Positions 33,007 to 56,313 of a DNA stretch of 64,000 nt are shown here, piece after piece. Numbering within the stretch: the stretch's first letter is position 1; the number at the start of each line of letters is the position of its first letter. The notes beneath the pieces were generated by a model. It saw nothing but the letters and a program-made list of their open reading frames with translations, ran no database searches and was not told the origin of the DNA. Source of the DNA: Escherichia coli (GTDB lineage Bacteria; Pseudomonadota; Gammaproteobacteria; Enterobacterales; Enterobacteriaceae); the NCBI RefSeq assembly GCF_024502345.1, contig NZ_JALDNN010000001.1, one strand, 5' to 3'. A program made the translations under genes and the position numbers.

Positions 33007-33501
33007 GTGAAGATTGATGCATCCCGTCGGGGCATACTCACTGGTCGCTGGCGCAAAGCCAGTAACGGTATCCGTCCGCCCTGGTCCGGTGATGAATCTC
33101 ATTTTCTGACCCATTGCACCCGCTGCGACGCCTGTATTAATGCTTGTGAAAACAACATTCTGCAACGCGGCGCGGGCGGCTATCCGAGCGTTAATTTCAA
33201 AAATAACGAGTGCAGCTTCTGTTACGCCTGCGCGCAGGCTTGCCCCGAATCGCTATTTTCTCCGCGCCACACCAGGGCCTGGGATTTGCAGTTCACCATT
33301 GGGGACGCGTGCCTGGCGTATCAGTCAGTTGAATGCCGCCGCTGTCAGGATAGCTGTGAGCCAATGGCAATTATCTTTCGCCCGACGCTCTCCGGGATCT
33401 ACCAGCCGCAACTTAATAGCCAACTTTGCAACGGATGTGGAGCATGTGCAGCCAGCTGTCCGGTATCAGCCATAACTGCGGAGTATCTCCATGCACACTA
33501 A
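33007..33501 (+). CDS. napF: Ferredoxin-type protein NapF
   Basis: 164 aa, GTG start, MKIDASRRGILTGRW, with multiple CxxCxxCxxxCP clusters. Confidence 0.95.
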   Translation: MKIDASRRGILTGRWRKASNGIRPPWSGDESHFLTHCTRCDACINACENNILQRGAGGYPSVNFKNNECSFCYACAQACPESLFSPRHTRAWDLQFTIGDACLAYQSVECRRCQDSCEPMAIIFRPTLSGIYQPQLNSQLCNGCGACAASCPVSAITAEYLHAH

Positions 33502-33754
33502 CTGGCAAGTTTGCAGCCTGGTCGTGCAGGCCAAAAGCGAACGAATTTCAGACATCAGCACCCAACTGAACGCCTTTCCCGGCTGTGAAGTTGCTGTCAG
33601 CGACGCGCCGAGCGGTCAGTTGATTGTGGTGGTGGAAGCAGAAGACAGCGAAACGCTGATCCAAACCATTGAGTCAGTACGCAACGTAGAGGGCGTGCTG
33701 GCGGTGTCGCTGGTTTATCACCAGCAGGAAGAGCAAGGTGAGGAAACACCATGA
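33491..33754 (+). CDS. napD: NapA chaperone NapD
   Basis: 87 aa, [21 protein letters not shown]. Overlaps the napF end and the napA start. Confidence 0.95.
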
Positions 33755-36237
33755 AACTCAGTCGTCGTAGCTTTATGAAAGCTAACGCCGTTGCGGCCGC
33801 TGCGGCGGCTGCCGGTCTCAGCGTGCCGGGCGTTGCCCGCGCCGTTGTTGGTCAGCAGGAAGCCATCAAATGGGATAAAGCGCCGTGCCGTTTCTGCGGT
33901 ACTGGTTGCGGCGTTCTGGTCGGAACGCAGCAGGGGCGTGTGGTGGCCTGTCAGGGCGACCCGGACGCACCGGTTAACCGTGGCCTGAACTGCATTAAGG
34001 GCTATTTCCTGCCCAAGATCATGTACGGTAAAGACCGTTTGACGCAGCCGCTGCTGCGTATGAAAAACGGTAAATATGACAAAGAAGGCGAATTTACCCC
34101 AATCACCTGGGATCAGGCCTTCGATGTGATGGAAGAGAAATTCAAAACCGCCCTGAAAGAAAAAGGGCCGGAATCGATCGGTATGTTCGGTTCTGGTCAG
34201 TGGACTATCTGGGAAGGTTATGCCGCGTCCAAGCTGTTTAAAGCGGGCTTCCGTTCGAACAACATCGACCCGAACGCGCGTCACTGTATGGCGTCGGCAG
34301 TAGTTGGCTTTATGCGTACCTTTGGTATGGATGAGCCGATGGGCTGCTATGACGACATCGAGCAGGCTGACGCGTTTGTGCTGTGGGGCGCAAACATGGC
34401 GGAGATGCACCCGATCCTCTGGTCACGCATCACTAACCGTCGTCTCTCTAACCAGGACGTCACCGTGGCGGTGCTTTCAACCTACCAGCATCGTAGCTTC
34501 GAGCTGGCGGATAACGGCATCATCTTTACGCCACAGTCTGACCTGGTGATCCTGAACTACATCGCCAACTATATCATTCAAAACAATGCGATAAATCAGG
34601 ACTTCTTCAGCAAACACGTTAACCTGCGCAAAGGGGCGACGGACATCGGCTACGGTTTACGTCCGACCCATCCGCTGGAAAAAGCAGCGAAGAATCCGGG
34701 TTCTGACGCCTCCGAACCGATGAGCTTTGAAGATTACAAAGCCTTCGTTGCTGAGTATACGCTGGAAAAAACCGCTGAAATGACCGGCGTGCCGAAAGAC
34801 CAGTTAGAACAACTGGCGCAGCTGTATGCCGATCCGAACAAGAAAGTCATATCCTACTGGACGATGGGCTTCAACCAGCATACCCGTGGTGTGTGGGCCA
34901 ACAACCTGGTCTACAACCTGCACCTGCTGACCGGCAAAATTTCCCAGCCGGGTTGCGGTCCGTTCTCCCTGACCGGGCAGCCTTCCGCGTGTGGTACTGC
35001 GCGTGAAGTGGGCACCTTTGCTCACCGTCTGCCTGCGGACATGGTGGTAACTAACGAGAAACATCGTGATATCTGCGAGAAGAAGTGGAATATCCCGAGC
35101 GGCACCATTCCGGCGAAAATCGGTCTGCATGCGGTAGCACAAGACCGTGCGCTGAAAGACGGCAAGCTGAATGTTTACTGGACCATGTGTACCAACAACA
35201 TGCAGGCCGGGCCGAACATCAATGAAGAGCGTATGCCGGGCTGGCGCGATCCGCGCAACTTCATCATCGTCTCCGATCCGTATCCGACAGTCAGTGCGCT
35301 GGCCGCCGACTTGATCCTGCCGACCGCAATGTGGGTAGAGAAAGAGGGCGCTTACGGTAACGCCGAACGCCGTACTCAGTTCTGGCGTCAGCAGGTACAG
35401 GCGCCAGGCGAAGCGAAATCGGATCTCTGGCAGTTAGTCCAGTTCTCCCGCCGCTTCAAAACTGAAGAAGTATGGCCGGAAGAGCTGCTGGCGAAGAAAC
35501 CGGAACTGCGTGGCAAAACGCTGTACGAAGTTCTGTATGCCACCCCCGAAGTGAGCAAATTCCCGGTATCCGAACTGGCGGAAGATCAGCTGAACGATGA
35601 ATCCCGCGAGCTGGGCTTCTATCTGCAAAAAGGGCTGTTCGAAGAGTACGCATGGTTTGGTCGCGGTCACGGTCACGATCTCGCGCCGTTCGATGACTAC
35701 CACAAAGCGCGCGGTCTGCGCTGGCCGGTGGTGAACGGTAAAGAAACGCAGTGGCGTTACAGCGAAGGTAACGACCCGTACGTGAAAGCGGGCGAAGGCT
35801 ATAAGTTCTACGGTAAACCGGATGGTAAAGCGGTGATCTTCGCGCTGCCGTTCGAACCGGCGGCGGAAGCACCGGATGAAGAGTACGACCTGTGGCTCTC
35901 TACCGGACGCGTCCTGGAGCACTGGCACACCGGCAGTATGACTCGCCGTGTGCCGGAACTGCACCGTGCCTTCCCGGAAGCGGTCCTGTTTATTCACCCG
36001 CTGGATGCGAAAGCGCGCGATCTGCGCCGTGGCGACAAAGTGAAAGTGGTTTCTCGCCGTGGCGAAGTGATCTCGATTGTCGAAACGCGCGGTCGTAACC
36101 GTCCGCCGCAGGGCCTGGTGTACATGCCGTTCTTCGACGCCGCACAGCTGGTTAACAAACTAACGCTGGACGCGACCGATCCGCTCTCGAAAGAGACGGA
36201 CTTCAAGAAGTGCGCGGTCAAACTGGAGAAGGTGTAA
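33751..36237 (+). CDS. napA: Periplasmic nitrate reductase catalytic subunit NapA
   Basis: 828 aa, Tat signal [31 protein letters not shown], 4Fe-4S motif CRFCGTGCG. Confidence 0.98.
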
Positions 36238-36243
36238 GCCATT

Positions 36244-36939
36244 ATGTCCCGGTCAGCGAAACCTCAAAATGGTCGCCGCCGCTTTCTGCGCGATGTCGTT
36301 CGCACAGCAGGCGGGCTGGCTGCCGTGGGTGTGGCGCTGGGGTTACAACAGCAAACCGCACGCGCATCTGGCGTGCGGTTGCGCCCGCCCGGAGCCATAA
36401 ACGAGAACGCCTTTGCCAGTGCCTGTGTGCGTTGCGGTCAGTGTGTTCAGGCTTGCCCTTACGACACCTTAAAACTGGCGACGCTGGCCTCTGGCCTGTC
36501 GGCGGGCACGCCATATTTTGTCGCACGGGATATTCCTTGCGAAATGTGTGAGGACATTCCGTGCGCCAAAGTGTGCCCGAGCGGTGCGCTGGATCGTGAG
36601 ATTGAATCGATCGACGACGCGCGGATGGGGCTGGCGGTACTGGTGGACCAGGAAAACTGTCTCAACTTTCAGGGGCTGCGCTGCGATGTTTGTTATCGCG
36701 AATGCCCGAAAATTGATGAGGCCATCACCCTGGAGCTGGAGCGCAACACGCGTACCGGTAAGCACGCCCGCTTTCTGCCGACGGTTCACAGCGACGCCTG
36801 TACCGGTTGCGGTAAGTGCGAAAAAGTATGCGTGCTGGAACAACCGGCAATCAAGGTGTTACCGCTGTCACTGGCGAAAGGGGAGTTAGGTCACCATTAC
36901 CGCTTCGGCTGGCTGGAGGGGAACAATGGCAAATCGTAA
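36244..36939 (+). CDS. napG: Ferredoxin-type protein NapG
   Basis: 231 aa, Tat motif GRRRFLRD, four Cys clusters. Confidence 0.96.
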
Positions 36940-37789
36940 ACGTGACGCCGGGCGCGAGGCGCTGGAGAAAAAAGGCTGGTGGCGCAGTCACCGTTGGCTG
37001 GTGTTACGTCGCCTTTGTCAGTTCTTCGTGCTGGGGATGTTTTTGAGCGGTCCGTGGTTTGGTGTGTGGATCTTGCACGGCAACTACAGCAGTAGCCTGT
37101 TATTCGACACCGTTCCGCTGACCGATCCGCTGATGACGCTGCAAAGTCTTGCCAGTGGTCATCTGCCTGCCACGGTGGCGTTGACCGGTGCGGTGATTAT
37201 CACCGTGCTCTACGCCCTGGCAGGAAAGCGATTATTTTGCAGCTGGGTCTGCCCGCTGAACCCGATTACCGACTTAGCGAACTGGTTACGCAGGCGCTTT
37301 GACCTCAATCAGTCTGCGACGATCCCTCGCCACATTCGCTACGTGCTGTTGGTGGTCATTCTGGTGGGATCTGCCTTAACTGGCACGCTCATCTGGGAAT
37401 GGATCAACCCCGTTTCCCTGATGGGGCGTAGCCTGGTAATGGGCTTCGGCAGCGGCGCGCTGCTTATTCTCGCGCTGTTTTTATTTGATCTACTGGTCGT
37501 TGAACACGGCTGGTGCGGGCACATTTGTCCGGTTGGCGCGCTGTATGGCGTGCTGGGTAGCAAAGGTGTGATTACCGTTGCGGCCAGCGATCGGCAGAAA
37601 TGTAACCGCTGTATGGATTGTTTTCATGTTTGCCCGGAACCGCATGTGCTACGTGCCCCGGTGCTGGATGAACAAAGCCCGGTGCAGGTCACCAGCCGCG
37701 ATTGCATGACGTGCGGTCGCTGCGTGGATGTCTGTTCTGAGGATGTATTTACAATAACTACACGATGGAGTTCGGGAGCGAAATCATGA
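36926..37789 (+). CDS. napH: Membrane ferredoxin-type protein NapH
   Basis: 287 aa with TM segments and C-terminal CxxCxxCxxxCP motifs. ATGA overlap with napB. Confidence 0.96.
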
Positions 37790-38229
37790 AAAGCCATGAC
37801 CTGAAGAAAGCGCTGTGTCAATGGACGGCGATGCTGGCCCTGGTGGTAAGCGGCGCGGTTTGGGCGGCTAATGGCGTCGATTTTAGCCAGTCGCCGGAAG
37901 TATCCGGGACGCAGGAAGGGGCCATTCGGATGCCAAAAGAGCAGGATCGGATGCCGCTGAACTATGTGAATCAGCCGCCAATGATCCCGCATAGCGTTGA
38001 AGGTTATCAGGTAACGACCAATACCAACCGCTGCTTGCAGTGCCACGGTGTCGAAAGCTATCGCACCACTGGCGCGCCGCGTATCAGTCCTACTCACTTT
38101 ATGGACAGCGACGGCAAAGTGGGCGCGGAAGTGGCTCCGCGTCGTTATTTCTGTCTGCAATGTCACGTACCGCAGGCCGATACCGCGCCAATCGTGGGGA
38201 ATACCTTTACCCCATCAAATACCGAATGA
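37786..38229 (+). CDS. napB: Di-haem cytochrome c NapB with a replaced C-terminus (last 3 codons and stop come from phage-side DNA)
   Basis: Starts [27 protein letters not shown]. Two CxxCH motifs (CLQCH, CLQCH). Ends ...GNTFTPSNTE*, whereas K-12 NapB as remembered ends ...TFTPSKGYGK. No napC follows. Confidence 0.85.
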   Translation: MKSHDLKKALCQWTAMLALVVSGAVWAANGVDFSQSPEVSGTQEGAIRMPKEQDRMPLNYVNQPPMIPHSVEGYQVTTNTNRCLQCHGVESYRTTGAPRISPTHFMDSDGKVGAEVAPRRYFCLQCHVPQADTAPIVGNTFTPSNTE

Positions 38230-38671
38230 AGTGGACTATCGAAAATTGCAGGAACTGTTCACGCGGATCGCCATCGATAAACATATTCAGCAAAAGCTTG
38301 AACATCCTCACCACCAGCTGGTGGCTACCTACCAGTCATTAAACCGCAAGTATTCAGAATTGCTGGAGGAATACAAAATCCTTCGGCGCTGCTTCTCTGT
38401 TTCCGCTCTTGTTCCTTATACCGACGTATGGACACATAAGCCTGTTCAGTTTTATCCAGGCAAACATCCATGCGAAAAACCTGCCGACATGCTGAAACAG
38501 ATCATTAGCGCCAGCAGCAGACCGGGGGATATCGTTGCCGATTTCTTTATGGGCTCTGGTTCAACTGTGAAAGCTGCAATAGAACTTGGCCGTCGGGCGA
38601 TCGGCGTAGAACTGGAGGCAGACAGGTTTATACAGACCACCGAAGAGGTGGAAAAACTGAAAAAATCATAA
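38218..38671 (+). pseudogene. 5'-truncated beta-class DNA (N6-adenine/N4-cytosine) methyltransferase
   Basis: Reads ...EVDYRKLQELF...PYTDVWTHKPVQFYPGKHPCEKPADMLKQIISASSRPGDIVADFFMGSGSTVKAAIELGRRAIGVELE. The AdoMet motif FxGSGST is present, but the upstream DPPY catalytic motif and a start codon are missing. The apparent N-terminus of track ORF 38048 is napB read out of frame. Confidence 0.8.
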
Positions 38672-38816
38672 CGATCACCACGCTCCCCCGTTGCTGTGGT
38701 GATCACCATCTTCAGGCACCGGGAATCATCCTTAATTTTTACTTGAACATAAGAGCCCGGTTGCCTGATCCCCTTCAATCACACACAGCGCCATCCGAAC
38801 TATCGGAGGTGAGGCT

Positions 38817-39095
38817 ATGACCAGAATGAGCACCATTTACAGCAGACTTTCATATGGATCAGGAACCACGCTTGCCGGCTGCGGTGTATCAGCGAAGGCA
38901 TATGCCGAAACAGCTAAAACAGCAAAAGAGGTGTCCTGGATGTTGGCCGACAGAATTGCAGGGTTAAGCCTGAGTGACTGGGCAATTATTGTCGGTATCG
39001 CATGCACAGTTATCACCTGTGCAGTGAACTGGTATTACAGGAAAAAGGAAAGGGAGGACCGGCTTAATGGCAATGTCACCAAAGCAGAAGAATAA
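38817..39095 (+). CDS. Holin, S21-like (pinholin-type) class II
   Basis: 92 aa. A weakly hydrophobic G/A/S-rich first segment (YGSGTTLAGCGVSA), a strong TMD (LSLSDWAIIVGIACTVITCAVNWYY) and a charged tail RKKEREDR. The pattern resembles phage 21 S21. Its 3' end overlaps the endolysin start. RBS ggaggtgagg. Confidence 0.7.
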   Translation: MTRMSTIYSRLSYGSGTTLAGCGVSAKAYAETAKTAKEVSWMLADRIAGLSLSDWAIIVGIACTVITCAVNWYYRKKEREDRLNGNVTKAEE

Positions 39096-39615
39096 ACTGA
39101 GCGCAGCGGTCGTTGGGTTAATTCTTGCCGGGGCTTCCGCACCCGTGATTCTCGATCAGTTTCTGGATGAGAAAGAGGGTAACAGCACAACAGCGTACAA
39201 GGACGGCTCTGGTATATGGACCATTTGTCGTGGCGCTACGATGGTTGATGGCAAGCCAGTAGTTCAGGGCATGAAGCTGTCTGCTGAGAAATGTTCCAAG
39301 GTGAACGCCATAGAACGCGACAAGGCGCTGGCGTGGGTCGAGCGAAACATCAAGGTGCCACTGACCGAACCACAGAAAGCCGGGATCGCGTCTTTCTGCC
39401 CATATAACATCGGTCCCGGAAAATGTTTCCCATCTACGTTCTATAAGCGAATAAATGCTGGCGACCGTGAAGGTGCCTGTGAAGCGATCCGCTGGTGGAT
39501 AAAAGACGGTGGTCGCGATTGTCGTCTGACCAAAGGGCAGAAGAACGGTTGCTATGGTCAGGTTGAACGGCGAGACCAGGAAAGCGCGTTGACGTGCTGG
39601 GGGATAGACCAGTGA
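39067..39615 (+). CDS. SAR endolysin (GH24 lysozyme with an N-terminal signal-arrest-release domain)
   Basis: 182 aa. N-terminal [19 protein letters not shown], then catalytic context [20 protein letters not shown] (E-x8-D-x5-T). Confidence 0.88.
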
Positions 39616-40127
39616 GCCTGCGCTATCAGTTCATTGTTATTTTGTTGCTGGTGGCCGTTGCATTCTTCGCGGGTAGTGTATGGAGCAGCCGCGGTTGGGA
39701 AAAGAAGTGGGCCGAGCGTGACAGCGTAGAATCATCGCAAACAGCGAACGCACAGACCGCCGCTCGCATGATTGAACAAGGGCGTATTATTGCCCGTGAT
39801 GAGGCTGTAAAAGATGCACAAGCACAAGCCGCTAAATCCGCTGCCACTGCTGCTGGCCTGTCTGCCACTGTTAACCAGCTGCGTACCGAAGCAACAAAGC
39901 TTGCCACTCGCCTGGACGCCGCAAAGCACACCGCAGATCTTGCCACTGCCGTCAGAAGCAAAACAGCCGGAGCCGACGCCGCAGTGCTCGCCGACATGCT
40001 CGGACGCCTTGCAGAAGAAGCTCGATATTATGCTGAGCGATCTGACGAAAGCTACCGGGCAGGAATGACGTGTGAGCGCATTTACGACTCAGTGAGGCAG
40101 TCAAACAACAACAGGGTTAGAAGATGA
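39612..40127 (+). CDS. Inner-membrane spanin subunit (Rz-like)
   Basis: GTGA overlap with the endolysin stop. N-terminal [23 protein letters not shown], then an Ala/Gln-rich coiled-coil periplasmic domain. Confidence 0.85.
39814..40068 (+). CDS. Outer-membrane lipoprotein spanin subunit (Rz1-like), fully embedded in the +1 frame of Rz
   Basis: 84 aa, lipobox LPLLTSC with Cys23, and a Pro-rich mature part ([19 protein letters not shown]). Same embedded architecture as lambda Rz/Rz1. Confidence 0.8.
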
Positions 40128-40354
40128 ACGCAGAAAACCTAAGTGAAGCGTATTACCTCAATAACGATATAAAAGAACTACAACTTCAGAAAAGCATACT
40201 GGAAAGTGGTGCCGGACTTGGTGTGACAATCCAGTCTACCTATCAGGATAACGCCTTTCTTGATGCCATACGCCCGCATGCAGTGGCTGAACTTGATCGC
40301 CGTATTGTGGAGAAGAAAAAAAACCTCTCCACTCTGGGTGTTACATTCTCTTAA
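40124..40354 (+). CDS. Hypothetical 76-aa protein translationally coupled to Rz
   Basis: ATGA overlap with the Rz stop. Predicted helical, [29 protein letters not shown]. No family recognised. Confidence 0.5.
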
Positions 40355-40429
40355 ATGAGAACAACAATAAAAGGTTATGTCTGCTTTGCCACATTCTGAG
40401 AGTATGAGTTTTATTTGGTAGTCAATCAG

Positions 40430-40603
40430 TTACTTTATTGGTTTGCTTTCCGATGGAAGATAGATGTTTCCACAGAAGGGGCAAATTAACGTTATATTGT
40501 TTTTTATTCTCGACAGACTGTGCTTTGACTGGCGGGAGCAATGAGGACAAGTACTTTTCACATGGCGTAAAGTACGCATCTTGATATCTTTGAGTATCGA
40601 CAT
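40430..40603 (-). CDS. Small zinc-ribbon protein (57 aa), not in the ORF track
   Basis: My translation of the minus strand is MSILKDIKMRTLRHVKSTCPHCSRQSKHSLSRIKNNITLICPFCGNIYLPSESKPIK. It has CPHC...CPFC pairs and AGGA about 9 nt upstream. It competes with track ORF 40422-40631, which is in another frame. Confidence 0.45.
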   Translation of the reverse strand: MSILKDIKMRTLRHVKSTCPHCSRQSKHSLSRIKNNITLICPFCGNIYLPSESKPIK

Positions 40604-40738
40604 GTTGATTGTCCTGGTGGGCGGTTAACAACCATACACCACATGTTGGCTAATAGCTTCTTTTATAACCGTTACGATGTAGTCGTTAGCCATAATCAAT
40701 CAAGCCTCGCAATAGCGGGGCTTTTTAACAACTGAGGA

Positions 40739-40942
40739 ATGAGCATTACAGTAGTTCTTACAGCTAAGCAGATTGAAGACCTGGCTGCCTTCGCAAAAGA
40801 AGATGGCCAGCCACAATATACCATCACTACCGGAACAATCCCTGAGTTCGAAGCGGATGATGGCGAGGTTATCCCTGAGTACACCGGGCTGATTGCCTAT
40901 TCCGAGTCGCTAGAGCATAGCGTTCTACAGCTCGATAACTAA
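40739..40942 (+). CDS. Hypothetical acidic 67-aa phage protein
   Basis: RBS tgaggaATG, MSITVVLTAKQIEDLAAFAKEDGQPQYTITTGTIPEFEADDGEVIPEYTGLIAYSESLEHSVLQLDN. A decayed paralogue lies at 42742-42918. Confidence 0.6.
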   Translation: MSITVVLTAKQIEDLAAFAKEDGQPQYTITTGTIPEFEADDGEVIPEYTGLIAYSESLEHSVLQLDN

Positions 40943-40978
40943 CGAATCAACATAACTTTCCATCCGCCATGACACCAC

Positions 40979-41135
40979 AATGCTCGTAGACATGCCAGGA
41001 AGCCTGGCAGAAGAAGCTCGATACCATGCTGAACGCGCTGATGAAAACTACCGAGCAGGAATGACATGTGAGCGGATTTATGAGTCCGTAAAAATACTAA
41101 CAATGAACCGTAGAGGAAAAATAATAGCTCTATAA
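40979..41135 (+). pseudogene. 3' remnant of a second Rz/Rz1 spanin gene pair
   Basis: Roughly 80% identical by eye to 39995-40120. It encodes ...[29 protein letters not shown] versus Rz ...[29 protein letters not shown]. The +1 frame keeps QKKLDTMLNALMKTTEQE* versus Rz1 [18 protein letters not shown]. Confidence 0.8.
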
Positions 41136-41514
41136 ATTAAGATGTTGACGGTTTTCGTGGATAAATTTGTGAATTTTTACTATGAAGGAAATACGACTCT
41201 TCCTTGAGTCAAAATCCCTGACAACTTAGGGTGATAGATAAAGGTCTTACGCAGCATGACATAATTTTCGATTTAAGCTATTTAAATTAATTTTTAAGAT
41301 CAAAACCCACTGAGATTTACTTACAAAACTAAACCTTGCTATGTCTGGTTAATCATGCGTTAATGAATGTCTGGTTTGTAACGAATTTATCTGAAGCAGT
41401 CGCTGTAATAATTTTATTCCTTGTTCCTGTTGAGATTTCCTTGTTAGCTTTTCTCTCTGATAAATTTTTTTCGGACCATTCTGCCCAAGGGCTTACTCAA
41501 TAAAGGTAATGTTT

Positions 41515-41727
41515 ATGTCTAATAAAATGACTGGTTTAGTTAAATGGTTTAATCCTGAAAAAGGTTTTGGTTTTATCACTCCAAAAGATGGTAGTAAAGA
41601 TGTGTTTGTTCACTTCTCTGCTATCCAGAGTAATGATTTCAAGACGTTGAATGAGAATCAGGAAGTTGAATTTAGTGTTGAACAGGGACCTAAAGGCCCC
41701 ACGGCAGTTAATGTCGTGGCTGTATAA
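41515..41727 (+). CDS. cspI: Cold-shock protein, CspI/CspB-like (prophage-borne)
   Basis: 70 aa, [73 protein letters not shown]1 motif KGFGFI, RNP2 motif VFVHF. Nearly identical to the remembered K-12 CspI. A long AT-rich leader lies upstream. Confidence 0.9.
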
Positions 41728-41926
41728 GGTAACTGTTATTACTAATAATATTCACTTCAGATGTCCGTGTTGCCACGGATCTCAGTACCGAACGTCAAAC
41801 TTTGATGTTACTGAAAAAAATCCTTTCGGAGCAAAATGTATTTTTTGCAAATCAACAATGATTACATTTGATAATATTGCACTGTACATTCGTTCTGGTC
41901 AGTCTTCGTTAGAATTCAGAAAATAA
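41711..41926 (+). CDS. Small zinc-ribbon protein downstream of csp (possibly YmcF/YnfQ-type)
   Basis: An ATG at 41711 overlaps the csp 3' end. Reads ...[39 protein letters not shown] (CPCC...CIFC). Start codon is uncertain. Followed by a strong terminator. Confidence 0.55.
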
Positions 41927-41931
41927 ATTTC

Positions 41932-41955
41932 AGGCTCCTTATGGAGCCTTTTTTG
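41932..41955 (+). terminator. Rho-independent terminator
   Basis: aggctcc-ttat-ggagcct followed by tttttt. Confidence 0.85.
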
Positions 41956-41999
41956 TATGCTGAACCGACAATCTCTGTAAGAGACATCACGGTAAAATT

Positions 42000-42230
42000 A
42001 TGAAAAAAGTCATCGTTTTTTTTAATGCAGAACCAGCAGTTGTTGTAACCGTAATGAAAGGTATTACTACGATAATGCGTGAGTTTCCCAATGGGGAAAA
42101 AGCACACCTACCCGTGATGTCAGCGGGATTTCCATCTCTGACAGGAGACCATAAAATAGTTTATGTAGCCTCTGATCGTGATGTCAGTTCAGAAGAGATC
42201 CTCGAGGCAGCCTCGAAGCTTTTGAAATGA
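42000..42230 (+). CDS. Hypothetical 76-aa protein
   Basis: ORF MKKVIVFFNAEPAVVVTVMKGITTIMREFPNGEK... with a weak RBS. No family recognised. A stem-loop with a T-rich tail follows (about 42254-42295). Confidence 0.4.
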   Translation: MKKVIVFFNAEPAVVVTVMKGITTIMREFPNGEKAHLPVMSAGFPSLTGDHKIVYVASDRDVSSEEILEAASKLLK

Positions 42231-42434
42231 GATCTGGTTGTTTCGTGACCGACCCGGATTTTAGTACAGTGGTTTGTGTGGTCGCGAGCTCTTTTGCATG
42301 AAGATTGTACTGCAAACTATTGATAATTGAGTCTTTCTATTCTATCTTTTAAACATATCAGCGCTTATACAAGTGCTCTACGGGGAATGTAACATGCCTG
42401 GCGTTGATACGTTAGAGATCAAGAGAGGTAAACA

Positions 42435-42608
42435 ATGAACGTCGAAGATTTAAAAAGAAAAACTGAAGCGGATATTTCTGAATTCATCACAAAAAAAATT
42501 ATTGAACTCAAAAAAAAGACAGGAAAAGAAGTTTCCGATATCCAGTTTAATGCTCGTGAAAAAATGACTGGGCTTGAAAGCTATGATATTAAAATCACAT
42601 TAATCTAA
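42435..42608 (+). CDS. gnsB: GnsA/GnsB-family small protein (57 aa), not in the ORF track
   Basis: My translation is MNVEDLKRKTEADISEFITKKIIELKKKTGKEVSDIQFNAREKMTGLESYDIKITLI*. It closely resembles the remembered K-12 GnsB (...REKMTGLESYDVKIKIM). RBS agagagg. Confidence 0.8.
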   Translation: MNVEDLKRKTEADISEFITKKIIELKKKTGKEVSDIQFNAREKMTGLESYDIKITLI

Positions 42609-42632
42609 TTGTTATAAGACTCAGTTCGAGTG

Positions 42633-42668
42633 AAAAAGCATTATCTTGAAAGGTAATGCTTTTTTATT
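42633..42668 (+). terminator. Rho-independent terminator after the gnsB-like gene
   Basis: aaaaagcatta-tcttgaaagg-taatgcttttt followed by a T-run. Confidence 0.8.
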
Positions 42669-42741
42669 TCTGTCATAAAATTTAGAACGTTGTCAAAGCC
42701 TTCACTTCTAACCACAGATTTTCTGCTTACCTTTTAACGGG

Positions 42742-42918
42742 TCCTCCTTGACGATTCTGACCATCGAGGGGCAGCAGCGGCGCGGGATTTGGAGCATTTT
42801 TGATTCTTCACGCAACCATTTCAGCATTTGATGCTGATGACGGAACACTATCCCCGAATACACTGGGTTTGTTGCATTCTCTGATTCAAAAGAACACGGT
42901 GTGCTTCAACTTGGCTGA
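42742..42918 (+). pseudogene. Decayed paralogue of the 67-aa gene at 40739-40942
   Basis: Three frame segments align to the intact copy: SLTILTIEGQQ vs SITVVLTAKQ, FDADDGTL vs FEADDGEV, and PEYTGFVAFSDSKEHGVLQLG* vs PEYTGLIAYSESLEHSVLQLDN*. There is no start codon and at least two frameshifts. Confidence 0.7.
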
Positions 42919-43011
42919 GCAGGCATTACAGCAGACATTCACTGAGTGCCTGCGACAAAGTTAAATGGCATCAAGCATGCGATGATGATTGATTAATAAT
43001 TGAGCTATGCA

Positions 43012-43020
43012 TGGTATAAT
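43012..43020 (+). promoter_or_regulatory. Extended -10 promoter element (TGgTATAAT) for the downstream zinc-ribbon ORF
   Basis: tggtataat lies 30 nt upstream of the ATG at 43050. A ttgatt at 42989-42994 is 20 bp away, which is too far for an ideal -35. Confidence 0.5.
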
Positions 43021-43049
43021 AAGCCCCATTCATTGAAAGGTTAACCACC

Positions 43050-43214
43050 ATGTCATTTTTCGATTATGCAATGCAGCGTGTTGGGCTTGCAGCCAATACG
43101 ACTGTCATGTGCCCGATATGCGGACATAAATCCACACACTCGACCACGAAAGTACGCCAACAACAGGCGTTACTTTGCCCTAAATGTAAATCGCTGTTTG
43201 TCATTCACAGATAA
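43050..43214 (+). CDS. Small zinc-ribbon protein (54 aa), not in the ORF track
   Basis: My translation is MSFFDYAMQRVGLAANTTVMCPICGHKSTHSTTKVRQQQALLCPKCKSLFVIHR* (CPIC...CPKC). It has its own promoter-like element and two downstream terminators. Track ORF 43066 is the same DNA in another frame. Confidence 0.6.
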   Translation: MSFFDYAMQRVGLAANTTVMCPICGHKSTHSTTKVRQQQALLCPKCKSLFVIHR

Positions 43215-43233
43215 CATGCGACCTGCTGAATAT

Positions 43234-43292
43234 AACCGCCTACGGGCGGTTTTTTATTGCCATCACAAAGGCCACTTTCGAGTGGCTTTTTT
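43234..43292 (+). terminator. Two tandem rho-independent terminators
   Basis: aaccgcc-tacg-ggcggtt followed by tttt (43234-43256), and gccact-ttcg-agtggc followed by tttttt (43271-43292). Confidence 0.8.
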
Positions 43293-43370
43293 AATGGTCA
43301 TCACGACGGGTATTACAGCAGGAATTACTGAGTGCCTGCGATAATGCTCAATATTTTTATCGGAGTGAAT

Positions 43371-43559
43371 ATGCCACCGCGCACACCGAAGGCCGGCCTG
43401 AAAGGGGCGATACAAAAAAGGGAAAAAATGAAAAGACATAAGCGAAATAAAAAAGCCACCACATCTGCAAATGTGATGGCTGGCATTCGGATTAATTCAG
43501 GTTGGCTGAATAAGTTAGCCGCAGATATTACTAAAATAATTAATGAAGCATGTCCCTAA
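43371..43559 (+). CDS. Hypothetical very basic 62-aa protein
   Basis: RBS ggagtgaatATG. MPPRTPKAGLKGAIQKREKMKRHKRNKKATTSANVMAGIRINSGWLNKLAADITKIINEACP, with a Lys/Arg-rich N-half and an amphipathic C-terminal helix. Its 3' end overlaps the convergent gene by 20 nt. Confidence 0.45.
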   Translation: MPPRTPKAGLKGAIQKREKMKRHKRNKKATTSANVMAGIRINSGWLNKLAADITKIINEACP

Positions 43560-43779
43560 TCTCATCTGAGATATCTCTTGGCCCTGCAGGCTGAGGCGCA
43601 ACCAACCGGGTCGGAAGTCTCTCGAAGAAACCACCACCACCATGATGATGAAAACCCCGGTTATTTTTATAACTATTGAAGTTACTGTCGGTAGTGAGAA
43701 GGATGTTGCACTGGTGCGAGCAGTCAACAACAACGACATCACCTGCATTCAGGTGCATTCGTTTGTGAAGAAATTGCAT
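43540..43779 (-). CDS. Hypothetical 79-aa protein, DUF1883-like (tentative)
   Basis: Strong RBS (gataaggagacttATG on the minus strand). MQFLHKRMHLNAGDVVVVDCSHQCNILLTTDSNFNSYKNNRGFHHHGGGGFFERLPTRLVAP... resembles the remembered DUF1883 pattern (HLNxGDxVVVxCSxxCNIxLxxDxNFxxxKNG). It looks shorter than typical family members. Confidence 0.5.
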   Translation of the reverse strand: MQFLHKRMHLNAGDVVVVDCSHQCNILLTTDSNFNSYKNNRGFHHHGGGGFFERLPTRLVAPQPAGPRDISDEIRDMLH

Positions 43780-43947
43780 AAGTCTCCTTATCAAGAGGCA
43801 ATCAGCACTCCTCTCAAGGCTGGTACGCCAACGTCCCACCGCTGACGGGCTGAGCCATTACCTTACCCAGACTCAACGATAAGTAACATCCTGATATTCA
43901 GACAGTAACTGTAATCGATAATGCTGAAGAATAGGCAGTAAATACAG

Positions 43948-44595
43948 GTGACTGATATGGCAACACTGAAGGATTTATCAAACCAGTTAAAGCAACTGCA
44001 AAAGCAAATCCCGTTTGCCACAGCTCAGGCGATGACAAAAGTTGTACGCCAGATTGAGTTGGCTCAGAAGACGGCATTCGAACGACATCTGGAGAGCCCC
44101 ACGCCGTTTACCGTTAAATCAGTTGGTTCGGTGGCGGCAAGAAAGAACAATCTGACCGCAAAGGTTTTTGTCCGTGATACCGCTGCTGGTTATCTGGAAC
44201 CATTCGAGTTTGGCGGAGAGCACAAGCTCAATAGCCAGGCTCTATTAAATCCCAAGAACGTTAAGCTAAACAAATACGGCAACATGCCGCGTAATAAGCT
44301 CTCACAGCTTAAAGCAAAGGAAAATGTATTCGTAGGTGAGGTTGATGGCGTTAACGCTGTCTGGCAGCGTAAGAAGCCGATGAAAGCTAAGAAGCGACGG
44401 GCCAAACGTTCCGCTAACGGGACGCGAAGACCGAAACGCAAACAGCGTTCTCCAAAGCTTTTGATCCGGTTTGGTGATGCGCTACCTGTGACTCCAGTGC
44501 TGGGGTATATGGATAGGGCCCGTACCATGGCGAACGCACTGCTACCGTCTGCTTTAAATCAGGCGATAGCAGAAGCCATCAGGACGGCAAAATAA
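43948..44595 (+). CDS. Phage protein, possibly lambda gpZ / HK97 gp10-like tail-completion family (tentative)
   Basis: 215 aa. N-terminal IPFATAQAMTKVVRQIELAQKTAFERHLESPTPFTVKSV and an internal poly-basic stretch RKKPMKAKKRRAKRSANGTRRPKRKQR recall gpZ-type proteins. GTG start (alternative ATG at 43957). Located upstream of cos, apart from the other structural genes. Confidence 0.4.
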   Translation: MTDMATLKDLSNQLKQLQKQIPFATAQAMTKVVRQIELAQKTAFERHLESPTPFTVKSVGSVAARKNNLTAKVFVRDTAAGYLEPFEFGGEHKLNSQALLNPKNVKLNKYGNMPRNKLSQLKAKENVFVGEVDGVNAVWQRKKPMKAKKRRAKRSANGTRRPKRKQRSPKLLIRFGDALPVTPVLGYMDRARTMANALLPSALNQAIAEAIRTAK

Positions 44596-44632
44596 AAGCA
44601 GTAACTTATAAGTTAATTTCGCAAGCTTTTAT
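44592..44632. terminator. Candidate bidirectional terminator hairpin between convergent genes
   Basis: Outer arms ataaaagc / gcttttat enclose the 14-bp palindrome taacttataagtta (44602-44615). The structure spans both stop codons. Confidence 0.4.
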
Positions 44633-45109
44633 GAAGCTGTTTACTGCAGTTGTCGATCCAGAAACATTGGCTGACATGGAATGCTGGTTTCCGCCATCCT
44701 TTGTTTGCACACCAACTAACACTTTGGATTTCGCCCCCTGAAGCTGCTTAAGCACTGTTTTCAGTTGGTCCGTGTCATCCGATTGAATCTGGAGGCTCTG
44801 AACATTACGTCTTGAAAGGGTAGCATCGAGCTTCACTGCGGTATTCCCGTCGACCTTCATTATCAGGTCCATTGGTACCTCTGATAGTGATTCGGTGCTT
44901 TTATCCATTTCAACGTATGCCGCCGATAGCTTTTCTTTAGTGCAGTCAAACACAATGGCGCCATTGTCGGATGAAACCTCGCCAAGCATCATTGCTTTCT
45001 TACCACCAGAGAAAAGGTCATCTTCAGTATTAGTTACCCACTGGGCATGAGCAATTGGTGATGCCAGCACTGCGGCTACGAAAGTTATTTTGATTATATT
45101 GTTACCCAT
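44606..45109 (-). CDS. Exported (signal-peptide) protein of unknown function, accessory gene on the opposite strand
   Basis: 167 aa from MGNNIIKITFVAAVLASPIAHA|QWV, with RBS aaggagaatgtaATG. Two Cys residues. No family recognised. The track ORF has an 11-codon extension. Confidence 0.65.
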   Translation of the reverse strand: MGNNIIKITFVAAVLASPIAHAQWVTNTEDDLFSGGKKAMMLGEVSSDNGAIVFDCTKEKLSAAYVEMDKSTESLSEVPMDLIMKVDGNTAVKLDATLSRRNVQSLQIQSDDTDQLKTVLKQLQGAKSKVLVGVQTKDGGNQHSMSANVSGSTTAVNSFIKACEINL

Positions 45110-45252
45110 TACATTCTCCTTGTATTGAATAGGAATAATCATAGTCGGAGCGAATGGTCGAAGCCATTAAAAAAATGGGTCCTTCCTGAGACTTTTGTAA
45201 GGCACGGGCATTGCGCGCCGCGGTGTTTTCCTAGCTACAACTTTCAGATTTG

Positions 45253-45400
45253 TGTCCCATGTCCCACCTCTGGCGATCATTACGGACACCTCGCCAGCTC
45301 TGGCTATTCCAGTTTATTCCAGTGGGACATTCTGGTGGGACATGGCAAAAATGTCCCAGGCGAATGTCCCACCCCAGAAAATGTCCCAGGTGATGTCCCA
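45253..45400. promoter_or_regulatory. cosB-like array of eight TGTCCCA heptamers (6 direct, 2 inverted) upstream of the small terminase gene
   Basis: Direct copies at 45253, 45260, 45352, 45365, 45382 and 45394; inverted (tgggaca) at 45323 and 45336. A ~25-bp unit aaaatgtcccagg(c/t)ga(a)tgtccca occurs twice. The last copy abuts the terS ATG. Confidence 0.6.
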
Positions 45401-45969
45401 TGACCACGATGAACCAGAGTCAGTACGCACAACATTCAGGTGTGGATCGCAAAACAATTGGTCGGTGGATTAAAGCCGGGCGCTTCATTGTGATGGACGG
45501 AGACCTGATTGACGTAGAGGCCAGCGATGCGGCATTGAAGAAAAACCGCGATGGCAAAGACCCGCGCGCCTCGAACGCGAAGAAAAAGAAAACTCCCGTC
45601 GTTAGCGATAACGATGATGACGGTGATGAAATCAATAAAACTGTCCGCCAGATAATGCTCACTGAAGGGGCAGATCTTTCGAGAGAGGAAGCGGGACGTA
45701 TCCGCGAGAATTACATGGCCCTGCAGGCAAAGCTGCAGTATGAAAAAGACAGCGGCCAGCTTATTGAGCTGACAGCAGCCGAGGAGGTTTTATTCAACGC
45801 CTTTCGCCAACAGCGTGATGCCTGGCTTAACTGGCCGTCCAGGGTGGCGCCGCTAATGGCTGCTGATCTGGATGTACCGGCGGACAGGATGACAGAGGTG
45901 CTGATTGAACATGTCCACAAACACATCTCAGTCCTCGGAGAGCCAGAGTTTAACCCGGCAGAAGATTGA
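45400..45969 (+). CDS. Terminase small subunit (Nu1-like, N-terminal winged HTH)
   Basis: 189 aa. MTTMNQSQYAQHSGVDRKTIGRWIKAGRF has an HTH like lambda Nu1 (KKQLADIFGASIRTIQNWQEQG). Sits directly upstream of the GpA-type large subunit. Confidence 0.8.
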   Translation: MTTMNQSQYAQHSGVDRKTIGRWIKAGRFIVMDGDLIDVEASDAALKKNRDGKDPRASNAKKKKTPVVSDNDDDGDEINKTVRQIMLTEGADLSREEAGRIRENYMALQAKLQYEKDSGQLIELTAAEEVLFNAFRQQRDAWLNWPSRVAPLMAADLDVPADRMTEVLIEHVHKHISVLGEPEFNPAED

Positions 45970-48034: not shown

Positions 48035-48042
48035 GGAAAATC

Positions 48043-48306
48043 ATGTTCAACCGGAACACCAGCCTGCTTGCCGGCGCAATGACTGACGATCAGCTCAGGG
48101 ATGCGCTTGCGAAAGCTCAGCAGGCGTACATTGATTTAGCAACCGGGAGCCACGGTGTTTCGTTTTCCTATACGCAGGGAGACGGGACGCGATCAGTGTC
48201 CTATCAGCAAAGCACCCTGGCTGATCTGCTGGCCCTGATTCAACTTCTGCAGGCGCAACTGGGGATTATCTCTCGTCCCCGGAAACCAGCGAGGTTTAGA
48301 TTCTGA
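48043..48306 (+). CDS. Head-tail joining protein, gpW family
   Basis: 87 aa between terminase and portal as in lambda. RBS aaggaaaatcATG. Confidence 0.7.
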   Translation: MFNRNTSLLAGAMTDDQLRDALAKAQQAYIDLATGSHGVSFSYTQGDGTRSVSYQQSTLADLLALIQLLQAQLGIISRPRKPARFRF

Positions 48307-49943: not shown

Positions 49944-50806
49944 ATCTACCCCATCTGGCCCAGCGATTATTTAACACCCCGCTGGCGCTGCACCCGAGTA
50001 AAGCCGAAGTCATCATGGCATCCGTAATGGACCGATTTGGTATCAGTAAAATCGAATCTTCTCTTGCCATGGAGGATGACTGGTACGGATATGACGATAA
50101 CCGGGGACGTGAATCCCGTAGTGATCCGGGTTATGACAATGTGCTGGGTGTCGCCGTCATCCCGATATGCGGAACGCTGGTGCAAAAACTGGGCAGTCTG
50201 CGTCCGTACAGTGGAATGACAGGGTATGACGGCATTCGTCAGGCGTTTCTTACTGCGATGGAAGATCCCGACATTTCGGGCATTTGCCTGGATATCGACT
50301 CACCCGGCGGCGAGGTCGCTGGATGCTTCGATCTGGTTGATGTCATTTACGGCTCCCGGGGGAAAAAGCCTATCCATGCCATTCTGACGGAAAGCGCTTA
50401 TTCCGCTGCGTATGCCATTGCCAGTGCAGCGGACCGGATTTCTGTTCCGCGCACCGGCGGAGTGGGTTCTGTGGGTGTGATCACCATGCACCTTGACTGG
50501 ACGCAGCGGATTAAAGATGACGGTCTTAAAGTTACGATCATCACCTATGGATCCCGCAAGGCTGAAGGTTCGCCGCTGAGAGAGTTGTCAGATGAAGCTC
50601 TGGCCGCCATCCAGCAGGACATTAACACCATGGGCGAATTGTTTGTGAACACTGTTGCCAGAAACCGGGGGATTAGCGCAAAGGTTATAAAAAGTACCCA
50701 GGCCGCCTGTTTTATGGCTGCTGATGGCGTTGAAATTGGACTGGCTGATGAGGTGTGTCCTCCTGACGCTGCGTTCAAAAACTTACTTGAAAAAACAGGA
50801 GCCTGA
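49940..50806 (+). CDS. Head maturation protease, S49 (SppA/ClpP-like, lambda gpC-type)
   Basis: 288 aa. GTGA overlap with the portal stop. Motifs DIDSPGGEV and GGVGSVGV. Confidence 0.88.
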   Translation: MNLPHLAQRLFNTPLALHPSKAEVIMASVMDRFGISKIESSLAMEDDWYGYDDNRGRESRSDPGYDNVLGVAVIPICGTLVQKLGSLRPYSGMTGYDGIRQAFLTAMEDPDISGICLDIDSPGGEVAGCFDLVDVIYGSRGKKPIHAILTESAYSAAYAIASAADRISVPRTGGVGSVGVITMHLDWTQRIKDDGLKVTIITYGSRKAEGSPLRELSDEALAAIQQDINTMGELFVNTVARNRGISAKVIKSTQAACFMAADGVEIGLADEVCPPDAAFKNLLEKTGA

Positions 50807-50807
50807 A

Positions 50808-51398: not shown

Positions 51399-51802
51399 TG
51401 GATCAGTTTGGTCAGAATGCGTTTGCGCCTGGCATGAAGAGCGCGCTGTTTGTTCCGGATCAGCTTGTCGCTGGCACGCTCCAGCTGGTGACTGACACCG
51501 GGATCATTACGGGCGGTGCCTTTAAGCGTGGTACTGTCCTGGGCCTGGTGGCTGCCAGCGGGAAATACACGCAATGTGTGAAAACGGCTGAAGATGGCAG
51601 TCAGTTACCCGTTGCTATTCTGGTTGATGATGTTGATGCATCGTCTTCCGATCAGAACGGCGGCCTGTATCTGATGGGGGAATTCAACCAGCACCGAATT
51701 ATTTTTGATAACTCCTGGACGACCGCTGACCTGAAAAAAGCGCTCCGACCGCTGGCTATCTTCCTGAAAGACAGTGACCAGGCACCTGTAACCACCTCCT
51801 GA
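51398..51802 (+). CDS. Head decoration protein (gpD-like)
   Basis: 134 aa. TAATG overlap with the upstream gene. Position and size match lambda D. C-terminal half reads PVAILVDDVDASSSDQNGGLYLMGEFN. Confidence 0.7.
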   Translation: MDQFGQNAFAPGMKSALFVPDQLVAGTLQLVTDTGIITGGAFKRGTVLGLVAASGKYTQCVKTAEDGSQLPVAILVDDVDASSSDQNGGLYLMGEFNQHRIIFDNSWTTADLKKALRPLAIFLKDSDQAPVTTS

Positions 51803-51899
51803 TTTCCCCCACGGCTCTCCTGACGAATGCTTTAACCGGCAGGGGCTGGCTCGTTTAAATTTTTTGCCAGCTGCGGCTGGCACTATCAAGAGACTGAAT

Positions 51900-52949: not shown

Positions 52950-52950
52950 T

Positions 52951-53331: not shown

Positions 53332-53335
53332 TGAC

Positions 53336-54237: not shown

Positions 54238-54240
54238 TCC

Positions 54241-55937: not shown

Positions 55938-55940
55938 ACG

Positions 55941-56312: not shown

Positions 56313-56313
56313 G

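What the first reader, a model, noticed from the sequence alone, without database searches (positions are those of the whole stretch)
38200..38671. nap operon ends inside napB, fused to a headless phage methyltransferase: a non-att deletion joint that removes napC
NapB matches the canonical protein up to ...GNTFTPS and then ends NTE*; K-12 as remembered continues KGYGK*. napC, which should follow, is absent. From about 38,218 the DNA encodes the C-terminal part of a beta-class DNA methyltransferase (PYTDVW, HPCEKP, FFMGSGST). That fragment lacks its N-terminal DPPY motif and any start codon. A phage lysis cassette begins 145 bp after its stop. In a lambdoid prophage, lysis genes are separated from attL by the whole early region (int, immunity, replication, Q), and none of that is present. 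There is also no IS or direct repeat at the joint. The simplest reading is an illegitimate-recombination deletion spanning the prophage early region plus adjacent chromosome. That chromosome includes napC at least, and possibly ccmA-H and beyond, depending on where the phage originally sat. It would lock the prophage in place, with no int or xis on this side. It would also abolish periplasmic nitrate reduction even though the FNR/NarP-controlled promoter and napFDAGH remain intact. If ccm is included, all c-type cytochrome maturation would be lost.
Basis: partly seen in the sequence, partly recalled or inferred. Interest (0 to 1): 0.6.

Follow-up and report, generated by a model that had tools for sequence, protein, structure and literature searches.

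The report
One-off napB–prophage rearrangement breakpoint
In one E. coli isolate the nitrate-reductase gene napB is joined, with no shared sequence, to the back half of a prophage DNA-methylase gene; the joint is there in the sequence, but the window cannot show whether napC and ccm were lost, and comparison with other genomes argues against a simple local deletion.

Summary
Native napB sequence runs to 38219. Phage methyltransferase sequence starts at 38220. Only CAA (38216-38218) is shared. There is no IS, no repeat and no att-like core at the joint. NapB' (147 aa) keeps its whole conserved domain. The methylase piece is residues 199-350 of a 350-aa beta-class enzyme; it lacks DPPY and a credible start, so it is dead.

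The junction is absent from 5,426 complete E. coli genomes. The truncated NapB occurs in one NCBI assembly only.

The deletion reading is not shown. The two closest chromosomes have no prophage after napB. 5,418 of 5,426 genomes have napB–napC–ccm–narP contiguous. The only nearby integration hotspot, proL, carried 8-9 kb satellites facing the wrong way in the two genomes sampled. Relatives of this mosaic prophage sit at yecE, kch–yciI, hpaR or ydfJ.

Among the checked sites, only the kch–yciI position gives this junction in one viable step: a roughly 1 Mb inversion across the terminus, which would relocate napC-ccm rather than delete them. I favour that at about 0.35. Deletion is about 0.22, with insertion, duplication and misassembly behind it.

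This is a private structural variant of low general interest.

The parts
33007..37789 (+). napF, napD, napA, napG and napH, all full length
   Evidence: ORF lengths are 164, 87, 828, 231 and 287 aa. The segment 35347-38219 has 1 mismatch in 2,873 nt against strain C 236-04A.
37786..38229 (+). napB' (147 aa). It is native through codon 144 (Ser, 38215-38217); the last three codons (NTE) and the stop come from the joint and the phage DNA.
   Evidence: Pfam NapB profile positions 23-127 of 127 are retained. It aligns to solved NapB chains through residue 144. The exact protein is WP_256632744.1, found on one contig.
38216..38220 (+). Breakpoint. napB identity ends at 38219 and methylase identity begins at 38220. 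The parents share only CAA (38216-38218).
   Evidence: Three-way comparison of the window with both parental sequences; megablast ranges.
38220..38671 (+). 3' fragment of a phage beta-class N6/N4 DNA methyltransferase gene (residues 199-350 of 350). It has no DPPY motif and no credible start.
   Evidence: 99.8% identical to the Nissle / 027_SK3 gene. PF01555 profile positions 132-215 only. Parent sequence. Candidate starts lack a Shine-Dalgarno sequence.
38672..38816 (+). 145-nt spacer before the lysis cassette, with no promoter-like or terminator-like site
38817..40127 (+). Lysis cassette: holin (38817-39095), lysozyme (39067-39615) and a DUF2514 Rz-like protein (39594-40127)
   Evidence: ORFs. 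98.7% identical to the 027_SK3 prophage. Pfam assignments on homologous loci.
40124..45399 (.). Cargo (moron) region. It holds a 76-aa ORF, a YnfU-like ORF, a DUF2514 remnant, a cold-shock-domain protein, a YmcF-like ORF, a GnsAB-toxin-like ORF and others.
   Evidence: Window 38754-42965 is about 96.5% identical to a widespread module.
45400..64000 (+). Late region: terminase, gpW, portal, S49 protease, decoration and capsid proteins, then Mu-like sheath, tube and baseplate genes. All 21 genes checked are intact. The prophage runs off the window end.
   Evidence: 99.3-99.9% nucleotide identity to prophages of KMi029 and NCTC 13148. ORF integrity and 96-100% aa identity.

Best explanation
The feature is the breakpoint of a single, recent, homology-independent (illegitimate) rearrangement that is private to one E. 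coli isolate. It joins napB, just after codon 144, to codon 199 of a methyltransferase gene. That gene lies between Q and the lysis genes in a mosaic prophage with a lambda-like head and a Mu-like tail.

**Shown.**
- NapB is left essentially intact.
- The methylase fragment is dead.
- On this side of the joint, the lysis cassette and a complete, undamaged set of head and tail genes are separated from the phage early region and from Q/pR'. They now lie directly downstream of napFDAGHB', with no terminator-like site between.

**Inferred.** The event was most probably not a local deletion. I think it was a large inversion of about 1 Mb, spanning the replication terminus, between napB and a prophage resident at the kch-yciI attachment site. 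In that case napC-ccmA-H are still in the genome, joined to the 5' half of the methylase gene at the reciprocal junction. They would be uncoupled from the nap promoter and placed downstream of the phage late promoter.

Transcription entering the phage DNA from the nap promoter is probably damped by Rho-dependent polarity across the roughly 590 nt untranslated stretch before the holin gene. This last point is inference only.
For: **The junction anatomy is directly shown.**
- Breakpoint and parental sequences.
- No IS, repeat or terminator.
- Domain content of NapB' and the methylase fragment.
- Late genes intact.

**The event is private.** The junction is absent from 5,426 complete genomes, and the NapB' protein is on one contig only.

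**Evidence against a neighbouring prophage.**
- The closest chromosomes, C 236-04A (1 mismatch in 2,873 nt) and 19SZHZ869Rt, have the canonical order napB-napC-ccm-narP-yejO-proL-yejM.
- 5,418 of 5,426 genomes have napB 3'-napC-ccm-narP contiguous.
- The proL insertions sampled are satellites with the integrase next to proL.

**Evidence for the kch-yciI geometry.**
- All four prophages sampled with at least 95.8% nucleotide identity to the late region lie between kch and yciI: KMi029, NCTC 13148, NCTC 9040 and OW1E2.
- In the frame of 19SZHZ869Rt they read early-to-late in ascending coordinates, while the window reads descending into napB. This head-to-head arrangement is the signature of an inversion.
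- The kch-yciI site is empty in that close relative, so a recent acquisition there is possible.

**The yecE site is excluded for a simple event.** The methylase-lysis module's relatives sit at yecE in the same orientation as the window. That would need a deletion of about 0.4 Mb removing argS and yejM, which would be lethal. The essentiality of these two genes is from established knowledge.
Against: - Nothing outside the window could be read. The far prophage end, the reciprocal junction, and the presence or absence of napC-ccm are all unknown.
- The prophage is a mosaic: a yecE-type methylase-lysis module, a widespread cargo module and a yciI-type late module. Lower-identity relatives of the late module sit at hpaR and ydfJ. 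Its integrase and attachment site therefore cannot be inferred securely from the late genes.
- From general knowledge, inversions with non-homologous ends are much rarer than deletions. A 1 Mb inversion that is asymmetric about dif would unbalance the replichores to roughly 60:40.
- No read-level (Logan) assembly carries the NapB' ORF, so the joint has no support independent of the deposited assembly.
Confidence: 0.35

Rival explanations
1. Local deletion. A lambdoid prophage sat just downstream of the nap operon with its early region towards nap. One illegitimate deletion removed the napB 3' end, napC, some or all of ccm/narP/yejO, attL, int and everything through Q to the methylase 5' half. 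The result would be a locked cryptic prophage, with loss of Nap activity and possibly of cytochrome c maturation.
For: - The junction has the anatomy expected of such a deletion: same-strand fusion, no homology and no early genes on this side.
- From established knowledge, deletions running from a prophage into flanking host DNA are the commonest kind of illegitimate event. They are also selected for, because they remove the prophage's lethal functions.
- proL, 12 kb away, is a real integration hotspot.
Against: - The deletion cannot pass the essential gene yejM, so the prophage would have to lie within about 12 kb.
- 5,418 of 5,426 complete genomes have no insertion from napB to narP.
- Both proL insertions sampled are 8-9 kb satellites with the integrase next to proL, which is the opposite polarity to what is needed.
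- Neither close relative has a prophage there.
- No sampled relative of either phage module is integrated near nap.
Confidence: 0.22
2. Illegitimate insertion of a circular phage genome into napB. One non-homologous crossover between the methylase gene of an infecting or induced phage and napB would insert the whole phage in permuted order: methylase 3' half-lysis-late genes-attP-int-early genes-Q-methylase 5' half. The napB 3' end, napC and ccm would lie intact beyond the far end.
For: - It needs only one crossover and makes no assumption about the attachment site.
- It is compatible with the orientation seen, with the intact late genes, and with a 4.74 Mb contig against 4.70 Mb in a close relative.
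Against: - From general knowledge, Int-independent insertion is extremely rare.
- A normal attachment site (kch-yciI) is free in the lineage, so site-specific integration should win.
- There is no direct evidence for it.
Confidence: 0.12
3. Novel junction of a large tandem duplication. The prophage would lie upstream of the window, beyond gyrA, in the same orientation. The segment from the methylase gene to napB would be duplicated head to tail, so nothing is lost.
For: - From general knowledge, tandem duplications with little or no junction homology are frequent and harmless.
- The orientation required, with late genes co-directional with the window's + strand, is the usual one on this replichore.
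Against: - The duplicated unit would exceed 38 kb plus the distance to the prophage, because no phage DNA lies in window 1-38215.
- None of the attachment sites seen for relatives of this prophage lies in that direction.
- The contig is only 34 kb longer than the chromosome of a close relative.
Confidence: 0.08
4. Assembly artefact. A chimeric join of two unrelated loci in the one deposited assembly.
For: - The joint is seen in one assembly only.
- No Logan read-level assembly contains the NapB' ORF.
- Every biological route to this junction is itself a rare event.
Against: - Both sides are unique sequence with at most 3 nt in common. Assemblers typically misjoin at repeats.
- The flanks are clean: 1 mismatch in 2,873 nt and 1 in 485 nt against the parental sequences, with no indels. 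All neighbouring ORFs are intact. This points to a well-polished assembly.
Confidence: 0.15

Closest known systems
Illegitimate (short-homology-independent) recombination between a lambdoid prophage and host DNA. Classical examples are the events that create lambda gal/bio transducing phages and the heat-survivor deletions of lambda cI857 lysogens (recalled from the literature).
   Same: The joint lies between the inside of a phage gene and the inside of a host gene, with 0-3 nt of homology. No att core and no IS are involved.
   Different: In the classical cases the host partner lies next to the attachment site. Here no relative of this prophage, and no complete E. coli genome among 5,418 of 5,426, has a prophage next to napB. 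The two partners were therefore probably far apart.
Large chromosomal inversions across the replication terminus with a prophage as one endpoint, as described for E. coli O157 lineages (recalled from the literature).
   Same: The geometry matches: a prophage on one replichore and a partner on the other in head-to-head orientation, which preserves gene-strand bias.
   Different: Known cases arise by homologous recombination between similar prophages, IS elements or rrn operons. This joint has no homology, and its second partner is a single-copy metabolic gene.
Beta-class N6-adenine / N4-cytosine DNA methyltransferases (Pfam PF01555) carried between Q and the lysis genes of lambdoid prophages. 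Examples are WP_001704131.1 in the Nissle 1917 prophage at yecE and WP_502321952.1 in NCTC 13148.
   Same: The fragment is 99.8% identical to the 3' 452 nt of that gene and sits in the same place before the holin gene.
   Different: It holds only residues 199-350. The catalytic DPPY motif, the N-terminal half of the domain and a translation start are all missing.

Membership tests
PF01555 N6_N4_Mtase (beta-class DNA methyltransferase), as an active enzyme | Catalytic motif IV (D/S)PP(Y/F) in the N-terminal part | tested here: not met
   The parent has TDPPY at residues 33-37. The fragment begins at residue 199.
PF01555 N6_N4_Mtase (beta-class DNA methyltransferase), as an active enzyme | AdoMet-binding motif I (FxGxG) near the C-terminus | tested here: met
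   FFMGSGST is encoded in 38216-38668. Pfam profile positions 132-215 match at E = 4e-24.
PF01555 N6_N4_Mtase (beta-class DNA methyltransferase), as an active enzyme | Complete domain together with a translation start | tested here: not met
   Profile positions 1-131 are absent. The in-frame GTG, TTG and ATG codons have no Shine-Dalgarno sequence.
NapB dihaem cytochrome c (PF03892) | Whole conserved domain with both CXXCH haem-binding motifs | tested here: met
   Profile positions 23-127 of 127 match at E = 5e-44. Two CLQCH motifs are present. The protein aligns to 1JNI, 1OGY and 3ML1 through residue 144.
Site-specific (att x att) prophage junction | The joint lies at the phage attP next to int, with a core sequence shared with the host site | tested here: not met
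   The joint lies inside a late-operon gene between Q and the holin gene in every intact relative. Only CAA is shared. No integrase gene is in the window.
IS- or transposon-mediated rearrangement | An IS element, terminal inverted repeats or a target-site duplication at the joint | tested here: not met
   The repeat scan of 35200-41200 finds nothing at 38216-38220. Both flanks are continuous with the parental sequences up to the break.
   None is present in the two closest genomes or in 5,418 of 5,426 genomes for the napB-narP stretch. The proL elements have the opposite polarity and are satellites. This was tested in comparator genomes, not in the source genome itself.
   The source assembly could not be fetched. 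The look-ups of flanking-gene alleles were uninformative: common alleles are masked by larger genomes, and the rare YejO and RadD alleles of 19SZHZ869Rt are not carried by the source contig.
Reciprocal inversion | A second novel junction (methylase 5' half joined to the napB 3' end and napC), and yciI-tonB after the prophage tail end | not testable with these tools
   The window ends inside the baseplate genes. Orientation compatibility was tested and met.

The most novel reading that the evidence does not exclude
The rearrangement may have placed a complete lysis cassette and an undamaged set of head and tail genes under the FNR/NarP-controlled nap promoter, free of phage repressor and Q control. 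Anaerobiosis with low nitrate would then trigger partial lysis or release of phage-like particles. That would be an accidental, respiration-regulated module resembling a tailocin or a gene transfer agent.
Probability: 0.03. Interest if true: 0.55.

Novelty: new member of a known kind. Interest (0 to 1): 0.2.

Why it matters
For this one isolate, the result decides whether periplasmic nitrate reduction, and possibly all c-type cytochrome maturation, is lost. That would follow from a deletion. If the event was an inversion or an insertion, the genes are only rewired.

More generally, the case is a caution. A prophage–chromosome fusion seen in a 64 kb window does not by itself say that the missing neighbours were deleted. 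The orientation of the prophage and the known attachment sites of its relatives can point to a long-range rearrangement instead.

The finding does not bear on any open question of wider interest.

Tried and rejected
**Fetching the source genome.**
- Exact look-up of NapB' among encoding contigs found nothing on record.
- Junction-spanning patterns were absent from the GTDB species representatives, from IMG/VR and from JGI metagenomes.

**Locating napC-ccm in the source genome through protein look-ups.**
- I looked for accession numbers or the fingerprint of a longest contig of 4,736,520 bp.
- I used the NapC, CcmA/B/C/F/H, DsbE, NarP, YejO, YejM and RadD alleles of the two closest genomes.
- Common alleles are masked by larger genomes, and the rare YejO and RadD alleles of 19SZHZ869Rt are not shared with the source.
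- This gives no information either way.

**Other leads that gave nothing.**
- The 60-aa methylase C-terminal ORF occurs in three short Logan/ENA contigs, where it sits at a contig end or follows another ORF; none was checked for this joint.
- No isolated phage in the phage collection matches more than 4% of the prophage part.
- A literature search on nap/ccm promoters gave nothing I needed to cite.

**Explanations considered and rejected.**
- att-site integration, an IS-mediated event, and recombination by the phage's Pin-like tail-fibre invertase. The joint is nowhere near the invertase or its sites.
- A methylase family member that naturally starts at this point. The intact parent gene is 350 aa, and the fragment lacks half the domain.
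- Simple deletions from prophages at yecE or ydfJ. For yecE the orientation fits but the deletion would remove essential genes such as argS and yejM. For ydfJ the same argument rests on the K-12 map as I remember it, combined.

Full report
**1. The observation**

The window is E. coli chromosome, running from gyrA through rcsCBD, ompC, mqo, eco and napFDAGH. napB starts at 37786 and ends ...GNTFTPS-NTE-stop at 38229. In the nearest relatives it ends ...TPSKGYGK-stop, followed 10 nt later by napC.

Megablast against 5,426 complete E. coli genomes splits an 801-nt query across the joint into two parts:
- napB, matching up to 38219 in 5,400-odd genomes.
- A phage 'DNA-methyltransferase' gene, matching from 38216 in Nissle 1917 and a few others.

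No genome holds both parts in one place.

A three-way comparison with both parental sequences puts the break between 38219 and 38220. The parents share only CAA at 38216-38218. There is no IS, no direct or inverted repeat and no terminator-like or promoter-like site at or just after the joint. G+C content falls from about 0.56 to 0.50 there.

**2. The two truncated genes**

*The methylase.* The intact gene is 1053 nt (350 aa). It has TDPPY at residues 33-37 and FFMGSGST near the C-terminus, which is the beta-class motif order. The window keeps residues 199-350. Pfam PF01555 covers profile positions 1-215 in the parent and only 132-215 in the fragment. The in-frame GTG, TTG and ATG codons have no ribosome-binding site.

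*NapB.* By contrast, NapB loses only its last five residues. The whole Pfam NapB domain and both CXXCH motifs are present, and alignments to the solved NapB chains 1JNI, 1OGY and 3ML1 run through residue 144. 'The nap operon ends inside napB' is literally true, but NapB itself is probably functional.

**3. Is the joint real, and how widespread is it?**

The exact 147-aa protein is in NCBI as WP_256632744.1 / MCQ7034210.1, on a single contig of 4,736,520 bp. The joint is therefore part of a deposited E. coli assembly and is private to it.

It is absent from:
- the complete-genome set;
- the GTDB species representatives;
- IMG/VR;
- JGI metagenomes.

No read-level Logan assembly holds the ORF, so there is no confirmation independent of the assembly. 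Against an artefact, both flanks are unique sequence, they match their parents almost perfectly without indels, and all neighbouring ORFs are intact. Assemblers typically misjoin at repeats, and there is none here.

**4. The prophage**

It is a mosaic of three modules.

| Window span | Content | Closest relatives |
|---|---|---|
| 38216-40090 | methylase 3' end, holin, lysozyme, DUF2514 | 98.7% identical to the 027_SK3 prophage; 90.8% over 38216-40109 to the Nissle 1917 prophage, whose methylase part is 99.8% identical |
| 38754-42965 | lysis and cargo genes | about 96.5% identical to a very widespread module that occurs with quite different head genes |
| 43984-64000 | lambda-like head, Mu-like tail | 99.3-99.9% identical to prophages of KMi029 and NCTC 13148 |

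All 21 late genes are intact. The window ends inside the baseplate genes. It contains no early-region DNA, no methylase 5' half and no napC or ccmA.

**5. Testing the deletion reading**

A simple deletion requires that the prophage lay just downstream of napB with its early genes on the nap side. It must also have lain before yejM, which is essential (established knowledge). That leaves about 12 kb: napC, ccmA-H, narP, yejO and proL.

- The two closest chromosomes, C 236-04A (1 mismatch in 2,873 nt) and 19SZHZ869Rt, have this interval in canonical form with no prophage.
- An 8-kb query from the napB 3' end to upstream of narP is contiguous in 5,418 of 5,426 genomes.
- The only variable point is the 3' end of proL, occupied in roughly a tenth of genomes.
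- The two proL examples I read are 8-9 kb P4-like or capsid-forming satellites with the integrase next to proL. That is the wrong kind of element in the wrong polarity.

None of this rules out an unusual integration in the source strain. It does make the precondition for the deletion model rare.

**6. Where relatives of this prophage sit, and what each site implies**

*yecE.* The methylase-lysis relatives are at yecE. In the frame of 19SZHZ869Rt they read in the same direction as the window. A napB-to-methylase joint would then be a deletion of about 0.4 Mb that removes argS and yejM, and so would not be viable.

*kch-yciI.* The four relatives of the late region sampled at 95.8-99.9% identity all lie between kch and yciI. 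They read in the opposite direction to the window. Joining napB to the methylase 3' half is then exactly what one inversion of about 1.0 Mb, spanning the terminus, would produce. The site is empty in the close relative, so recent lysogenisation there is plausible.

*hpaR and ydfJ.* Lower-identity relatives sit at these sites.

Of the sites checked, only kch-yciI yields the observed joint in one viable step. Under that model napC-ccm are not lost. They lie behind the methylase 5' half at the reciprocal junction, uncoupled from the nap promoter.

**7. Weighing the models**

- The inversion fits all the comparative data without inventing an attachment site. It is mechanistically rare, because its ends are non-homologous and it would unbalance the replichores.
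- The deletion is mechanistically common and would be selected for, but it needs an unobserved integration site.
- Two further models cannot be excluded: illegitimate insertion of a circular phage genome into napB, and the novel joint of a large tandem duplication.
- A misassembly cannot be excluded without reads.

My estimates are inversion 0.35, deletion 0.22, artefact 0.15, insertion 0.12 and duplication 0.08, with the rest for more complex histories. I could not read the rest of the source genome. Indirect protein look-ups for the flanking genes were uninformative.

**8. Consequences that hold under every real-event model**

- The lysis cassette and the morphogenesis genes are cut off from Q/pR' on this side.
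- They lie downstream of napFDAGHB' with no terminator-like site between.
- The roughly 590 nt between the napB' stop and the holin start is untranslated. Rho-dependent polarity probably limits read-through, which is inference only.
- The prophage cannot excise normally as a unit.

**9. Verdict**

The illegitimate, non-att joint and the dead methylase fragment are right. The loss of napC and ccm is unproven, and comparative evidence makes it the less likely outcome.

This is a private structural variant of a well-known general kind, and its general interest is low. One look at the full assembly, or a read mapping, would settle it.

Noticed in passing
window 39975-40093 and 40971-41089: A 119-nt direct repeat (82% identical). 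The second copy is a partial 3' end of the DUF2514 (Rz-like) gene. The two copies bracket about 1 kb that holds a 76-aa ORF and a YnfU-like ORF. The same layout, including a 51-aa DUF2514 remnant, occurs in many other prophages. It looks like the scar of an old insertion or recombination.
   Followed up: partly
window 38754-42965: The lysis and cargo module (holin, lysozyme, DUF2514, a cold-shock-domain protein, a YmcF-like ORF and a GnsAB-toxin-like ORF) is about 96.5% identical to a module indexed in 2,870 blocks of public assemblies. Several holin variants in its protein cluster are labelled Citrobacter. There it is joined to quite different terminase and capsid genes. The prophage is therefore a three-part mosaic.
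   Followed up: partly
L007 20432-28000 and L012 20432-29000 (proL region of other E. coli): The proL tRNA gene next to yejM is an integration hotspot, occupied in roughly a tenth of complete E. coli genomes. The two examples read carry 8-9 kb satellites with the integrase next to the tRNA. One is P4-like, with Ash, Icd-like and DUF927 primase genes. The other carries a small terminase subunit and a major capsid protein.
   Followed up: partly
window 31620-32100: The mqo-eco intergenic region contains about four tandem units of roughly 113 nt. They show up as a repeated peptide (MRR[ND]RLIRPTGWSTSQR...) in overlapping ORFs. They are probably REP/BIME-type repeats.
   Followed up: no
window 16571-16846: The ato gene cluster, starting with atoS, which many strains carry in the stretch from yfaQ to rcsC, is missing here. 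Genomes that have atoS span about 31 kb for the same 24-kb query.
   Followed up: no
window 38226-38342: An ATG overlaps the new napB' stop codon (ATGA) and opens a 38-codon out-of-frame ORF across the start of the methylase fragment. It could be translated by coupling, but it is probably meaningless.
   Followed up: no
L010 14240-16089 (19SZHZ869Rt): The kch-yciI attachment site used by the closest relatives of the late region is empty in one of the two closest chromosomes.
   Followed up: yes
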